Source of the DNA: the human T2T-CHM13v2.0 reference genome, Homo sapiens
Direction: 5' to 3' (one strand)
NCBI RefSeq assembly: GCF_009914755.1
Contig: NC_060947.1
DNA length: 64,000 nucleotides
Shown here: positions 20,681-28,587 of the stretch, piece by piece
Position numbering within the stretch: the first letter of the stretch is position 1
Layout of the letters: each line of letters begins with the position of its first letter
The notes under the pieces: model-generated
The model's database searches: none
The model's input: the letters and a program-made list of their open reading frames with translations, nothing else
Told to the model about the DNA's origin: nothing
Made by a program: the position numbers and the translations under genes

Positions 20681-21571
20681 ATAAAAAAAAATAAAGGAAT
20701 ATGGATGCGAATGTAAAATATCATCTGGTATCAAACAATTCTGAATGCCTAAATATGACTGGAACTTCTTCCAGTTTAATTGAAATATTTTGGATCTATT
20801 AATAAATGTGTAAACTTGCTTCCCTTTTTTATTATTTGATATATTCAACTTTAAGCTAAAGGGATATTCTAACCTATTTCTAAATACAATCTAAATTTAC
20901 CATGCTTTTCAAAATTCCTATCAGTGTTACGTGCAGATCTTGGCAATATTTCGCATGTGGGATAGAAATCTATTTTTTAATCAAAATATATTTTTACTGT
21001 GATTACAGTCATGATATAAAATGAAATAAATTCAATAGCTAATAGAAAATATTTGAAACATACATGTGTATGTATGTTAAAATTCATACCAAATTAAGAA
21101 AGAAGAAAACATTATTAATTTGATAAATGTATCAAAACCATAAACCTAGAAAAAAAATTATACTTAATCGTAAATATTAATAATTTATCTAAAATCGGAA
21201 ATAACACAGTGTTATTTTACTAGAAGATCTAACCATTGCATTAAGATAAGAAAGGAAGAGATATAAATATTGAAAAGATTGATACAAAACTGAGAATGAG
21301 AAGACTTTGAGGCAACATGGCTGAATAGGAACAGCTCCGGTCTACAGCTCCCAGCGTGAGCGACGCAGAAGACGGGTGATTTCTGCATTTCCATCTGAGG
21401 TACTGGGTTCATCTCACTAGGGAGTGCCAGACAGTGGGCACAGGACAGTGGGTGCAGCGCACCGTGCGCGAGCCGAAGCAGGGCAAGGCATTACCTCACT
21501 CGGGAAGCGCAAGGGGTCAGGGAGTTCCCTTTCCTAGTCAAAGAAAGGGGTGACAGATGGCACGTGGAAAA

Positions 21572-21754
21572 TCAGGTCACTCCCACCCTAATACTGCGCT
21601 TTTCCGACGGCCTTAAAAAACAGCGCACCAGGAGAGTATATCCTGCACCTGGCTCAGAGGGTCCTACACCCACGGAGTCTCGCTGATTGCTAGCACAGCA
21701 GTCTGAGATCAAACTGCAAGGTGGCAGTGAGGCTGGGGGAGGGGCACCCGCCAT
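21572..21754 (-). pseudogene. L1 ORF0 (antisense), truncated at 60 aa
   Basis: MAGAPPPASLPPCSLISDCCASNQRDSVGVGPSEPG...IRVGVT* with a premature TGA. Confidence 0.85.
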
Positions 21755-22349
21755 TGCCCAGGCTTGCTTAGGTAAACAAAGCAGCCAGGAAGCTCGAACT
21801 GGGTGGAGCCCACCACAGCTCAAGGAGGCCTGCCTGCCTGCCTCTGTAGGCTCCACCTCTGGGGGCAGGGTACAAACAAACGAAAAGACAGCAGTAACCT
21901 CTGCAGACTTAAATGTCCCTGTGTGACAGCTTTGAAGAGAGCAGTGGTTCTCCCAGCACGCAGCTTGAGATCTGAGAACGGGCAGACTGCCTCCTCAAGT
22001 GAGTCCCTGACCCCTGACCCCCAAGCAGCCTAACTAACTGGGAGGCACCCCCCAGTAGGGGCAGACTGACACATCACATGGCCGGGTACTCCTCTGAGAC
22101 AAAACTTCCAGAGGAACGATCAGACAGCAGCATTCATGGTTCACAAAAATCCGCTATTCTGCAGCCACTGCTGCCGATACCCAGGCAAACAGGGTCTGTA
22201 GTGGACCTCTAGCAAACTCCAACAGACCTGCAGCTGAGGGTCCTGTCTGTTTGTTAGAAGGAAAACTAACAAACAGAAAGGACATCCACACCAAAAACCC
22301 ATCTGTACATCACCATCATCAAAGACCAAAAGTAGATAAAACCACAAAG

Positions 22350-23364
22350 ATGGGGAAAAAACAGAGCAGAAAAACTGGAAACTCTAAAAAGCAGAGCGCC
22401 TCTCCTCCTCCAAAGGAACATAGTTCCTCACCAGCAACAGAACAAAGCTAGACGGAGAATGACTTTGACGAGTTGAGAGAAGAAGGCTTCAGATGATGAA
22501 ACTACTCCGAGCTACAGGAGGAAATTCAAACCAAAGGCAAAGAAGTTAAAAACTTCTTTGAAAAAAATTTAGGCGAATGTATAACTAGAATAACCAATAC
22601 AGAGAAGTGCTTAAAGGAGCTGATGGAGCTGAAAGCCAAGGCTCAAAAACTACGTGAAGAATGCAGAAGCCTCAGGAGCCAATGCGATCAACTGGAAGAA
22701 AGGGTATCAGTGATGGAAGATGAATGAAATGAAGCGAGAAGGGAAGTTTAGAGAAAAAAGAATAAAAAGAAACGAACAAAGCCTCCAAGAAATATGGGAC
22801 CATGCGAAAAGACCAAATCTACGTCTGAATGGTGTACCTGAAAGTGATGGGGAGAATGGAACCAAGTTGGAAAACACTCCGCAGGATATTATCCAGGAGA
22901 ACTTCCCCAATCTAGCAAGGCAGGCCAACGTTCAGATTCAGGAAATACAGAGAATGCCACAAAGATACTCCTCGAGAAGAGCAACTCCAAGACACATAAT
23001 TGTCAGATTCACCAAAGTTGAAATGAAGGAAAAAATGTTAAGGGCAGCCAGAGAGAAAGGTCGGGTTACCCTCAAAGGGAAGCCCATCAGACTAACAGCG
23101 GATCTCTCGGCAGAAACCCTACAAGCCAGAAGAGAGTGGGGGCCAATATTCAACATTCTTAAAGAAAAGAATTTTCAACCCAGAATTTCCTATCCAGCCA
23201 AACTAAGCTTCATAAGTGAAGGAGAAATAAAATACTTTACAGACAAGCAAATGCTGAGAGATTTTGTCACCACCAGGCCTGCCTTACAAGAGCTCCTGAA
23301 GGAAGCACTAAACATGGAAAGGAACAACCGGTACCAGCCACTGCAAAATTATGCCAAATTGTAA
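22350..23364 (+). pseudogene. L1 ORF1p, disrupted
   Basis: MGKKQSRKTGNSK..., stop at 22449-22451, further stops and indels; C-terminal 214 aa open (REKG, YPAKLS motifs). Confidence 0.95.
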
Positions 23365-23427
23365 AGACCCTCAACAATACGAAGAAACTGCATCAACTAA
23401 TGGGCAAAACAACCAGCTGACATCAAA

Positions 23428-26400: not shown

Positions 26401-27258
26401 AAGGACTTCATGTCTAAAACACCAAAAGCAATGGCAACAAAAGACAAAATTGACAAATGGGATCTAATTAAACTAAAGAGCTTCTGCACAGCAAAAGAAA
26501 CTACCATCAGAGTGAACAGGCAACCTACAAAATGGGAGAAAATTTTCACAACCTACTCATCTGACAAAGGGCTAATATCCAGAATTTACAATGAACTCAA
26601 ACAAATTTACAAGAAAAAAACAAACAACCCCATCAAAAAGTGGGCGAAGGACATGAACAGACACTTCTCAAAAGAAGACATTTATGCAGCCAAAAAACAC
26701 ATGAAAAAATGCTCACCATCACTGGCCATCAGAGAAATGCAAATCAAAACCACAATGAGATACCATCTCACACCAGATAGAATGGCGATCATTAAAAAGT
26801 CAGGAAACGACAGGTGCTGGAGAGGATGTGGAGAAATAGGAACACTTTTACACTGTTGGTGGGACTGTAAACTAGTTCAACCATTGCGGAAGTCAGTGTG
26901 GCGATTCCTCAGGGATCTAGAACTAGAAATACCATTTGACCCAGCCATCCCATTACTGGGTATATACCCAAAGGACTATAAATCATGCTACTATAAAGAC
27001 ACACGCACATGTATGTTTATTGCGGCACTACTATTCACAATAGCAAAGACTTGGAACCAACCCAAATGTCCAACAATGATAGACTGGATTAAGAAAATGT
27101 GGCACATGTACACCATAGAATACTATGCAGCCATAAAAAATGATGAGTTCATGTCCTTTGTAGGGACATGGATGAAATTGGAAACCATCATTCTCAGTAA
27201 ACTATCGCAAGAACAAAAAACCAAACACCGCATATTCTCACTCATATGTGGGAATTGA
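23428..27258 (+). pseudogene. L1 ORF2p (EN-RT-CCHC) with a single in-frame nonsense codon at 24667-24669
   Basis: ORFs 23428-24669 and 24712-27258 share one frame. EN motifs IQET/GDFN/SDH, RT FADD and CWRGC...HCWWDC are intact. Confidence 0.97.
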
Positions 27259-27478
27259 ACAATGAGAACACATGGACACAGGAAGGGGAACATCACACTC
27301 TGGGGACCGTTGTGGGGTTGGGGGAGGGGGGAGGGATAGCATTAGGAGATATACCTAATGCTAAATGATGAGTTAATGGGTGCAGTACACCAGCATGGCA
27401 CATGTATACATATGTAACCTGCACATTGTGCACATGTACCCTAAAACTTAAATAATAATAAAAAAAAGACAAAAAAAA

Positions 27479-27587
27479 TGGATTACCCCTCCTAAAGTAT
27501 ATATCAAATATTGAGTCACAGTTACACCTGCTTTGGGTGTAATTTGAAAGAAAATTAAAAACTTCATTTCCCATTTAAAAAAAAAAA
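27479..27587 (+). other. L1 3' transduced unique sequence with its own poly(A) signal and tail
   Basis: ~100 bp of non-L1 sequence after the L1 tail, ATTAAA 27554-27559, A11 27577-27587, then TSD aagactttgaggc (also at 21301-21313). Confidence 0.9.
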
Positions 27588-28033
27588 GACTTTGAGGCCA
27601 TTGTGATGAAATAAATGTATTTTACATGGGTGAAGAGCATGAATTTGGGGGGCCGGAGGGTAGAATGTTGTGGTTTGAATGTGTCCCCCAAAAAGCATGT
27701 GTTGGAAACTTAATCATCTGTGCAACACTGTTGGGAGGTTGGGCCTAATGAAAAGTCATTAGGCAATGAATGTAGAATGAATGGATTACAGCCATTATCA
27801 CAAGTGTGAGTTTATTATCTCAGTTGTGGGTTGACTATGAAAGGGGGAGTTCACCTTGTTTTACTTTCTCTCTCTCTCTCACGCTCTCGTTTCCTTCTAA
27901 CTTCCACCATGAGATGGCACAGCAAGAAGGTCCTCATTAGATGCTGGCACCTTGATCTTGAACTACCCAGCCTCCAGAACTGTGAGAAATAAATTTGTTC
28001 TTTATAACTTAAAAAAAAAAAAAAAAAAAAAAA
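27586..28033 (+). mobile_element. MST-int 3' end plus MST LTR (U3-R only) ending in poly(A)
   Basis: PPT-like 'ggggggccggagggtagaa', LTR from 27666, AATAAA 27988-27993, A23 28011-28033, no U5, TSD aaaactgagaatg (also at 21286-21298). Confidence 0.9.
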
Positions 28034-28587
28034 CAAAAACTGAGAATGCTTTCCAATGATTTGATTGATCTGATGATAAAAATTTGCTATCATATTAGAA
28101 AGAATTTGCCAATGCAATCTGCAATACCTAAATAATAATATGTACTGAGAAAAATAAAGACGTATATCAAAAAGTATTCAAGAACTATAATTTCATTTTG
28201 GAGTAAACTTAAACAAATTTGGGAAAACGCTACAAAGAAAGTTGTGAAATTTATTGACAGATTTAAACAACGTTCTGAAGACCATTTTCCTTTCAATCTA
28301 AAAGTTCACGAGTTTATTCAAGTTCTGAAAATTTATTTATATTAATTCAATAATTTTGTCGTTTTCATTTTCTTTCTTCACTCTTCTTTAATTCCTGATA
28401 AACATTGTGCTTATAGAATTGAACCCCTATGTTACTTATTGTTGCTTTCATATTTTTCCTCTTTTTTTCCTCTCAAGGTAAATATATGTATTTCTTCAGT
28501 GTTATTTTCTAGCCATTCTATTGATTTACTTTTGTATGACGATTATGCTTTATTGTCTGGTGCTTTTAAATAACAATTTCATTTTCT

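What the first reader, a model, noticed from the sequence alone, without database searches (positions are those of the whole stretch)
21286..28048. Composite L1 with nested TSD pairs and three poly(A) tails: a multi-generation serial transduction
Seen order: outer TSD aaaactgagaatg (21286-21298), 'ag', inner TSD aagactttgaggc (21301-21313), L1PA3, poly(A) 1, ~100 bp unique DNA with ATTAAA, poly(A) 2, inner TSD (27586-27598), MST-int/LTR cut at its AATAAA, A23, outer TSD (28036-28048). Inference, model A: a grandparent L1 donated the 100-bp tag, and the parent inserted into an MST element (inner TSD). The parent was then transcribed from just upstream of itself, read through two poly(A) sites to the MST LTR signal, and landed here (outer TSD). 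One locus would thus record three genomic addresses. Model B: an L1-mobilised MST retrocopy was later hit by an L1 only 2 bp from its 5' end. B needs a positional coincidence and fits the long, pure A23 tail poorly.
Basis: partly seen in the sequence, partly recalled or inferred. Interest (0 to 1): 0.9.

Follow-up and report, generated by a model that had tools for sequence, protein, structure and literature searches.

The report
L1 copy recording two lost parent sites
This is one old L1 retrotransposon insertion that carried along short pieces of DNA from two earlier homes (chromosomes 18 and 6), a tidy but already known kind of event called serial transduction.

Summary
Both 13-mers occur exactly twice in the window, there are three A-tracts, and a ~100-nt tag and an LTR piece end at their own poly(A) signals.

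The assembly itself names the sources.
- The tag is 96% identical to chr18 (C18:62690450-62690551).
- The LTR-element piece, including the inner 13-mer, is 96% identical to chr6 (C6:93982423-93982845).

Three new points favour model A, a single retrotransposition of a read-through transcript from a lost chr6 parent.
1. The bases before the 13-mer at chr6 are TT, not AG. So "ag" is untemplated, and the RNA began on the first base of the parent's target-site duplication (TSD).
2. That base is one nucleotide from where the retained YY1 box would place +1 in an L1 missing its first ~12 nt.
3. The endonuclease site at chr6 is TCTT/AA, which is common. Under model B it would be TCTT/CT, which has no parallel among 90 published sites.

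Multi-generation L1 families with short 5' and 3' transductions are in print, so this is a new member of a known kind. Confidence in model A is about 0.85. Interest is about 0.3.

The parts
21286..21298 (+). Outer TSD, 5' copy (chrX target site)
   Evidence: It is identical to 28036-28048 and these are the only two copies in the window. The base before it is C, giving an endonuclease site of TTTT/GT.
21299..21300 (+). Two untemplated bases 'ag' at the 5' junction. The g is plausibly cap-derived.
   Evidence: chr6 has TT at these positions. [quoted passage not shown]
21301..21313 (+). 13-nt 5' transduction: the parent's 5' TSD copy, chr6 LTR-element internal sequence
   Evidence: It is 13/13 identical to 27586-27598 and to the single copy at chr6. 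It starts 1 nt before the position that corresponds to canonical L1 +1, window 21302.
21313..21323 (+). YY1 box of the L1 5'UTR (L1 nt 12-22), here caacatggctg
   Evidence: It matches CAAGATGGCCG, as given in PMC2912911, at 9 of 11 positions. Its alignment to genomic relatives is shown.
21314..27459 (+). L1 body from L1 nt 13 to its 3' end. The first ~12 nt are missing; nt 8-12 overlap the target as the microhomology GAG-C.
   Evidence: The first 487 nt are 94-95% identical to 39 other genomic L1 copies. The ORF1 ATG is at 22350, and ORF1 carries several stops and a frameshift. The ORF2 frame 23428-27258 has 1276 codons with one internal stop. The 5'UTR is about 1048 nt, the long form.
27460..27478 (+). 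Poly(A) 1 (A8 GAC A8), the tail site of the L1 proper, read through. The last 5 A are ambiguous with chr18 sequence.
27479..27575 (+). First 3' transduction: tag copied from chr18, with ATTAAA at 27554
   Evidence: It is 96% identical to C18:62690450-62690551 on the minus strand, the only other hit in the genome. There are 4 mismatches, and homology ends 16 nt after ATTAAA.
27577..27585 (+). Poly(A) 2, the tail of the RNA that made the chr6 parent
   Evidence: The A-run spans 27577-27587. chr18 has no A-run at this point.
27586..27598 (+). Parent's 3' TSD copy, where the chr6-derived second 3' transduction begins
   Evidence: Homology to chr6 begins exactly here.
27599..27665 (+). 3' end of the LTR element's internal region, including a bypassed AATAAA (27610) and a purine-rich tract before the LTR
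   Evidence: Alignment to chr6. Signals.
27666..28010 (+). LTR (U3-R) of the chr6 element, ending 16 nt after its AATAAA (27988)
   Evidence: the upstream LTR of the same chr6 element aligns from query position 81, which is window 27666. At chr6 the LTR continues past the cut into U5.
28011..28033 (+). Poly(A) 3, A23: the tail of the RNA that inserted here
28036..28048 (+). Outer TSD, 3' copy

Best explanation
This is a single L1 retrotransposition event that carries both a 5' and a two-step 3' transduction. I infer four steps.

1. An L1 once sat on chr18 next to ...AAAAATGCATTGCCCC. Its transcript ran past the L1 poly(A) signal and ended after an ATTAAA about 85 nt downstream.
2. That RNA inserted into the internal part of an LTR element on chr6, at TT|AAGACTTTGAGGC. 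It made a 13-bp TSD and lost its first ~12 nt, joining at a GAG-C microhomology.
3. The chr6 parent kept its YY1 box. Its internal promoter therefore started transcription about 12 nt upstream of the box as usual, which now fell on the first A of the parent's 5' TSD.
4. The RNA ran through the L1 signal, the tag's ATTAAA and an AATAAA in the LTR element's interior, and was cleaved at the LTR's own poly(A) site. The L1 machinery inserted this ~6.7-kb RNA at chrX, at AC|AAAACTGAGAATG, adding 'ag' at the 5' end (the g probably from the cap).

The two source addresses, all junctions and the empty state of both source sites are shown directly. The former presence of L1s at chr18 and chr6, and YY1-guided initiation, are inferred.
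For: 1. Sources. The tag's only other genomic match is chr18 at 96%. The LTR piece, including the 13-mer, matches chr6 at 96%, and the next best hit is 80% or lower. Homology starts exactly at 27586 and stops at 28009, 16 nt after AATAAA, while the chr6 LTR runs on.

2. The 5' start. chr6 reads cagTT|AAGACTTTGAGGC|tactg, with one copy of the 13-mer. So 'ag' is untemplated and the copied RNA begins on the first base of the 13-mer.

3. The endonuclease site.
- If the L1 entered chr6, the site is TCTT/AA. That is 11 of the 90 sites legible in Table 1 of PMC4859970.
- If it entered a chrX retrocopy (model B), the site is TCTT/CT. None of the 90 has a pyrimidine after the nick.
- The same paper says the pyrimidine/purine asymmetry is almost always observed.

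4. The ruler. The 5' ends of the 19 of 29 relatives that one search printed place canonical +1 at window 21302, and the 13-mer starts at 21301. PMC2912911 puts the YY1 site at nt 12-22. It says YY1 can direct initiation at purines near the 5' end. It attributes 5' extranucleotides on L1s that keep the box to initiation upstream of the L1.

5. My own check of the 29 closest relatives.
- 14 had credible TSDs.
- The 3 with clear non-L1 filler replacing lost 5' bases (L034, L041, L042), plus L029 (doubtful), all start between 3 extra bases upstream of +1 and L1 nt 2.
- Their filler lengths of 6, 14 and 5 nt track how much L1 is missing.
- L028 shows the proposed parental structure: a TSD abutting L1 at about nt 13.

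6. Timing. Per-lineage divergence is alike in all three parts.
- LTR piece: 18 mismatches and 1 gap over 423 sites, pairwise, or about 2.1% per lineage.
- Tag: 4 mismatches in about 100 nt, or about 2% per lineage.
- L1: star-tree terminal branch of 2.5%.

7. Precedent. 5' transductions of 10 and 18 nt with 3' transductions over several generations, and an untemplated G, are reported in PMC6425141.
Against: - Neither inferred progenitor exists in this assembly. There is no L1 within 1.5 kb upstream of the chr18 tag. Only 1641 bp separate the two LTR matches on chr6.
- No sibling was found. None carries the tag, the LTR piece, or the 13-mer fused to L1 nt 13. In one search only the element itself and two hits at 3 mismatches appeared. 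One proved unrelated on inspection. The other was judged unrelated from its matched string alone, which resembles the ordinary L1 5' end.
- Outgroup primates could not be examined.
- The YY1 box as it stands today has 2 mismatches.
- The ruler check rests on 3-4 elements.
- One coincidence is unexplained. chr18 continues after the tag's end with AAGACTT, the first 7 nt of the chr6 TSD.
Confidence: 0.85

Rival explanations
1. Model B: two events at chrX. First, L1 proteins retrocopied a 5'-truncated RNA of the chr6 LTR element (427 nt plus tail). Later, an L1 carrying the chr18 tag inserted into that retrocopy with a 13-bp TSD.
For: It needs no L1 at chr6, and none is there. The source element with its upstream internal part and U5 is present, as this model also predicts. 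The divergence figures do not exclude it.
Against: The L1's TSD would have to begin on the very first templated base of the retrocopy, one position out of about 427. The nick site would be TCTT/CT, with a pyrimidine after the nick, seen in 0 of 90 listed sites. It would be chance that chr6 has TT just before the RNA's 5' end, and chance that this 5' end falls 1 nt from the L1's YY1-positioned +1. A lost progenitor at chr18 is still needed.
Confidence: 0.05
2. Model C: one TPRT event at chrX with template switching. Reverse transcriptase copied an LTR-element RNA whose 5' end lay at AAGAC. It then jumped to the poly(A) end of an L1-plus-tag RNA. Near that RNA's 5' end it jumped back, at the GAGGC/GAGCC microhomology, to a second LTR-element RNA and ran off its 5' end.
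For: It would explain why the composite's 5' end and the start of the inner repeat coincide exactly. There is a 4-of-5-nt microhomology at the L1 5' junction. Chimeric retrocopies made by template switching are known (recalled, not looked up).
Against: It needs two switches and an LTR-element RNA with an unnatural 5' end. It gives no reason for the repeat to be 13 nt long, to begin AA and to be preceded by TT at chr6. Those are exactly the marks of an L1 endonuclease target.
Confidence: 0.05
3. An assembly artefact, or a later rearrangement that joined unrelated pieces.
For: No call supports it. No reads were available to test it.
Against: Every junction has the exact form of retrotransposition: a tail placed 16 nt after a signal, and perfect 13-bp repeats at the right places.
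Confidence: 0.01

Closest known systems
L1 transduction family with both 5' and 3' transductions over several generations (Salvador-Palomeque et al. 2019, PMC6425141; passages read)
   Same: The chain there also runs progenitor to donor to offspring, traced by transduced tags. It has short 5' transductions (10 and 18 nt) ascribed to the L1 promoter starting upstream of +1, and an untemplated G read as a cap trace.
   Different: Those are young L1-Ta copies whose donors are still present. Here the event is old (about 2% per-lineage divergence) and both donors are absent from the assembly. The parent had also lost its first ~12 nt, so the transduced 13 nt stand in for the missing L1 5' end.
5' extranucleotides on L1 insertions that keep the YY1 box (Kojima 2010, PMC2912911; passages read)
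   Same: In both, non-L1 bases lie between the TSD and an L1 that starts at nt 6-12, explained by initiation upstream of the L1 in the parent.
   Different: Here the origin of the extra bases can be named (chr6, 13 of 13 identical), because the same sequence recurs in the 3' transduction.
Classical L1 3' transduction (as summarised in PMC4859970)
   Same: The transcript reads through the weak L1 signal to a downstream signal, and the whole unit lies inside one TSD pair.
   Different: Two nested transductions come from two chromosomes, separated by a tail and the parent's TSD. The second ends at an LTR's own poly(A) site.
Template-switch chimeric retrocopies (recalled from memory, not looked up)
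   Same: Sequences from two loci lie inside one TSD pair.
   Different: An inner direct repeat with L1 endonuclease-site context is not a feature of such chimeras.

Membership tests
L1 3' transduction | Non-L1 unique DNA follows the L1 tail and itself ends in a tail shortly after a poly(A) signal, all inside one TSD pair | tested here: met
   The tag ends 16 nt after ATTAAA and the LTR piece ends 16 nt after AATAAA.
L1 3' transduction | The transduced DNA maps to a unique locus elsewhere | tested here: met
   chr18 is the single hit for the tag. chr6 is the single 96% hit for the LTR piece.
L1 3' transduction | A source L1 lies immediately upstream of that locus | tested here: not met
   There is no L1 at chr18 or chr6 in this assembly. 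This is expected if the donors were never fixed, but it remains an inference.
L1 5' transduction by upstream initiation | Bases between the 5' TSD and the L1 match the donor's 5' flank | tested here: met
   13 of 13 bases are identical to chr6. The 2 bases before them do not match chr6 and count as untemplated.
L1 5' transduction by upstream initiation | The YY1 box is retained and the start lies near the +1 it would set | tested here: met
   The box matches at 9 of 11 positions at 21313-21323. +1 corresponds to 21302, and the RNA starts at 21301.
Serial (multi-generation) transduction | Two transduced segments from different loci, separated by a tail and the intermediate element's TSD | tested here: met
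L1 insertion into an older retrocopy (model B) | An L1 endonuclease-type nick site (pyrimidines, then a purine) at the inner insertion point as it stands on chrX | tested here: not met
   The site would be TCTT/CT. None of the 90 listed sites has a pyrimidine after the nick.
L1PA3 subfamily | Subfamily diagnostic positions | not testable with these tools
   No repeat library is available. Indirectly, of the 29 closest relatives, 9 have the 128-129-nt shorter 5'UTR and 20 the long form. The 129-bp deletion arose within L1PA3 (PMC7110667). This copy is the long form, which fits early L1PA3 or L1PA4.
MST / MaLR LTR element | LTR-internal-LTR structure, a purine tract before the 3' LTR, and a poly(A) signal in the LTR | tested here: met
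   chr6 has two LTR matches 1641 bp apart. The purine tract and AATAAA are seen. The name 'MST' itself was not testable.

The most novel reading that the evidence does not exclude
A 12-nt 5' truncation did not retire the chr6 parent. Its promoter re-measured +1 into the flank, so progeny carry the parent's TSD as a surrogate 5' end. If this is general, the short 'filler' bases at the 5' ends of many L1PA copies are readable addresses of extinct donors that were never fixed. In that case they could be mined genome-wide to rebuild L1 genealogies and to estimate how much amplification came from transient elements. In my survey, 3-4 of the 14 relatives with credible TSDs carried such filler, and all started between 3 extra bases upstream of +1 and L1 nt 2.
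Probability: 0.5. Interest if true: 0.4.

Novelty: new member of a known kind. Interest (0 to 1): 0.3.

Why it matters
The locus is a clean worked example. One fixed copy preserves the addresses of two source L1s that no longer exist in the genome, and its 5' end shows the L1 promoter acting as a ruler after a small truncation.

That is useful for teaching, and as a template for mining 5' filler and nested 3' tags to trace extinct L1 donors. It does not change current understanding. Each element of the mechanism (3' read-through, upstream initiation, cap G, several generations) is already published.

Tried and rejected
- **Sibling search.** I looked for another L1 with the 13-mer fused to L1 nt 13, which would have proved model A. 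The search found only the element itself and two hits at 3 mismatches.
  - The chr4 hit at 169.6 Mb has its own TSD (ATAAAGTAAAAAA) and a 58-nt filler containing an Alu piece, so the likeness is chance.
  - I did not inspect the chr4 hit at 161.4 Mb beyond its matched string, which resembles the ordinary L1 5' end. Its 3' region was fetched as L080 but never read.
- **Similar TSD on chr1.** The TSD AAGACTCAAAGGC of L028 resembles the inner repeat, but its flanks show no homology to the chr6 element. I rejected it as a relative.
- **Empty-site check.** Both chrX flanks are unique in the genome, so no paralogous empty site exists.
- **L1 remnant at chr18.** A local alignment runs a little upstream of the tag through AACTTAAA. 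The rest is only AT-rich likeness, so I rejected it.
- **Direct priming on chr18 read-through RNA.** Priming of the chr6 insertion at AAGACUU was considered. I rejected it because an A-run lies between the tag and the repeat, and chr18 has none.
- **Dating to separate A from B.** The three parts are equally diverged, but model B does not forbid that.
- **Tools and papers not available.** The Athanikar 2004, Lavie 2004 and Pickeral 2000 papers are not held. Their content is cited only through PMC2912911, PMC7778262, PMC4859970 and PMC6425141.
- **Searches for the locus in print.** My paper searches were on mechanisms, not on this locus. I found no description of it, but I cannot say that none exists.
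Full report
**What is there.**
- AAAACTGAGAATG lies at 21286-21298 and 28036-28048.
- AAGACTTTGAGGC lies at 21301-21313 and 27586-27598.
- Each 13-mer has only these two copies in 64 kb, even allowing one mismatch. Shuffles expect 0.27 and 0.15 matches.
- Between them lie 'ag' and a near-full-length L1.
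- Next comes an interrupted A-tract (27460-27478), then about 97 nt of non-repeat DNA with ATTAAA at 27554.
- An 11-A run follows (27577-27587), then the second inner 13-mer, then 412 nt of LTR-element sequence with AATAAA at 27988.
- A pure A23 (28011-28033) follows, then 'ca' (28034-28035), and the second outer 13-mer closes the composite.
- A further AATAAA at 27610 also lies in the path.

**State of the L1.** The L1 is decayed but not badly.
- The ORF2 frame (23428-27258) has 1276 codons and a single internal stop.
- ORF1 (ATG at 22350) has several stops and a frameshift.

**Where the pieces came from.** The window's own assembly could be searched.
- The tag has exactly one other match: C18:62690450-62690551 on the minus strand, 96% identical.
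- On chr18 the matching DNA sits in unique sequence, with no L1 in the 1.5 kb upstream and no A-run after it.
- Homology begins in AAAAATG and ends 16 nt after ATTAAA. That is the form of a 3' transduction.
- The LTR piece, including the inner 13-mer, matches C6:93982423-93982845 at 96%. The next best hits are 80% or lower.
- Homology begins exactly at the first base of the 13-mer and stops 16 nt after the LTR's AATAAA. At chr6 the internal region continues upstream and the LTR continues downstream.
- A second LTR match lies 1641 bp upstream on chr6. The chr6 element is therefore an ordinary LTR-internal-LTR unit with no room for a 6-kb L1.
- The 13-mer is present once at chr6, so this is an empty site.

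Both source sites lack an L1, however, and model B predicts that equally.

**What does decide: the 5' start and the nick site.** chr6 reads ...aatcagTT|AAGACTTTGAGGC|tactg.
- The two bases before the 13-mer in the window are 'ag', not TT. They are therefore untemplated, and the copied RNA began on the first A of the 13-mer.
- Untemplated G at L1 5' ends is read in the literature as a trace of the cap (PMC4859970; PMC6425141).
- The context TT|AAGA gives the nick site TCTT/AA on the other strand.
- In the passages of Table 1 of PMC4859970 that one search returned (rows 1-8, 12-50, 59-91, 95-115), 90 endonuclease sites are legible. Eleven are TCTT/AA, and all 90 have A or G after the nick.
- The text says the pyrimidine/purine asymmetry is almost always observed.
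- Under model B the L1 would have entered the chrX retrocopy at AG|AAGA, a site of TCTT/CT. That has no parallel among the 90. Its TSD would also have to begin on the first templated base of a 427-nt retrocopy.

**What does decide: the ruler.**
- The 5' ends printed for 19 of the 29 closest relatives show the usual start gggggaggagccaagatggccgaatag before GAACAGC. That places canonical +1 at window 21302.
- This L1 is homologous only from about nt 8-13. The GAG-C overlap with the target suggests a microhomology join.
- It keeps the YY1 box (nt 12-22, CAAGATGGCCG according to PMC2912911) as caacatggctg at 21313-21323.
- The RNA start at 21301 is therefore one base from where the box would set +1, and it is a purine.
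- PMC2912911 says YY1 can direct initiation at purines near the L1 5' end. It also says extranucleotides on L1s that keep the box are likely derived from initiation upstream of the L1.

**My check of the ruler on relatives.** I fetched the 3' ends of the 29 closest relatives and looked for their TSDs.
- 18 gave a match of 9 nt or more, 8 gave none, and 3 lacked the 3' anchor.
- Of the 18, I accept 14, those lying directly after the tail. I reject 4: two matches inside an Alu and two lying 165-284 nt downstream.
- Among the 14, three have clear non-L1 filler in place of lost 5' bases:
  - L034 has 6 nt of filler, with L1 from nt 8.
  - L041 has 14 nt of filler, with L1 from nt 12.
  - L042 has 5 nt of filler, with L1 from nt 7.
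- L029 is a doubtful fourth.
- All four start between 3 extra bases upstream of +1 and L1 nt 2, so filler length tracks the amount lost.
- Three others (L024, L044, L028) are truncated with no filler. L028 has a TSD abutting L1 at about nt 13, the structure I infer for the lost chr6 parent.
- The sample is small, but it agrees with the published account.

**Timing.**
- The LTR piece differs from chr6 by 18 mismatches and one gap over 423 sites, 3 of them CpG transitions.
- The tag differs from chr18 by 4 mismatches in about 100 nt.
- The first 1.9 kb of the L1 has a star-tree terminal branch of 2.5% at all sites and 1.6% at non-CpG sites, typical of its 29 relatives.
- All parts are thus about 2% diverged per lineage. 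That fits one burst of events but does not exclude model B.
- Of the 29 relatives, 9 have a 5'UTR shorter by 128-129 nt and 20 have the long form. This copy is the long form.
- The 129-bp deletion arose within L1PA3 in the great-ape ancestor (PMC7110667). 'L1PA3' is therefore a reasonable but untested label, and early L1PA3 or L1PA4 fits equally.

**Evidence against, and what is left open.**
- Both inferred donors are absent, and no sibling was found carrying the tag, the LTR piece or the 13-mer-to-L1 junction.
- Loss of donors is plausible, because active source L1s are often polymorphic and unevenly spread among populations (PMC5668948). A lost chr18 donor is needed under every model. It remains an inference all the same.
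- One oddity is unexplained. After the tag's end (cccatt), chr18 continues AAGACTTcag, which is the first 7 nt of the chr6 TSD.
- Priming on unprocessed read-through RNA would predict no A-run at that junction. An A-run is there, so I treat the match as coincidence.
- A template-switch origin (model C) would explain the exact coincidence of the 5' end and the repeat start. It would not explain the TT|AA context or the TSD-like length.
- No other primate genome, no reads and no repeat library were available.

**Comparison with what is known.** Multi-generation L1 transduction families are published, in which offspring carry both 3' tags and short 5' transductions (10 and 18 nt). Those are ascribed to initiation upstream of +1, and an untemplated G is reported (PMC6425141). 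The 5' filler on L1s that keep the YY1 box is also described (PMC2912911). This locus is an older, fixed example of the same kind. Its particular features are that both donors are gone and that the transduced 13 nt replace a lost L1 5' end.

**Verdict.**
- Model A is supported with about 0.85 confidence.
- Model B and the template-switch model stand at about 0.05 each.
- It is a new member of a known kind, with interest of about 0.3.

Noticed in passing
L002 (C18:62688950-62692051), minus strand, just after the tag; window 27586-27592: Right after the tag's end, chr18 continues with AAGACTT, identical to the first 7 nt of the chr6 target-site duplication. No mechanism fits, because an A-run separates the tag and the repeat in the window. 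I treat it as coincidence.
   Followed up: partly
L028 / L057 (C1:108.20 Mb, minus strand): This L1 is truncated at about nt 13 and abuts a 13-bp TSD, AAGACTCAAAGGC. That is the structure inferred for the lost chr6 parent, and it resembles the inner repeat at 9 of 13 positions. Its flanks are unrelated to the chr6 element.
   Followed up: yes
L078 / L079 (C4:169611588 onward): This L1 has an internal 5'UTR deletion running from just after ...catctgag to the point matching window 21930, which looks like a spliced L1 copy. It has the TSD ATAAAGTAAAAAA and 58 nt of non-L1 filler, including an Alu piece, before L1 nt 13. The last 9 nt of the filler recur in the 3' flank.
   Followed up: partly
L016-L044 with L045-L073: Among the 14 relatives with credible TSDs, 3-4 carry non-L1 filler whose length matches the number of lost 5' bases. 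They start between 3 extra bases upstream of +1 and L1 nt 2.
   Followed up: partly
L016-L044 (5'UTR between the anchors matching window 21930 and 22350): The 29 closest relatives split into 20 long and 9 short 5'UTR forms (about 412 vs 284 nt between the anchors). This is the 129-bp difference reported within L1PA3.
   Followed up: partly
window 23428-27258: The L1 ORF2 frame is kept over 1276 codons with only one internal stop, while ORF1 has several stops and a frameshift.
   Followed up: partly
window 7209-8235: The hub lists the TPT1P13 processed pseudogene, another L1-mediated retrocopy in the same window. I did not examine it.
   Followed up: no
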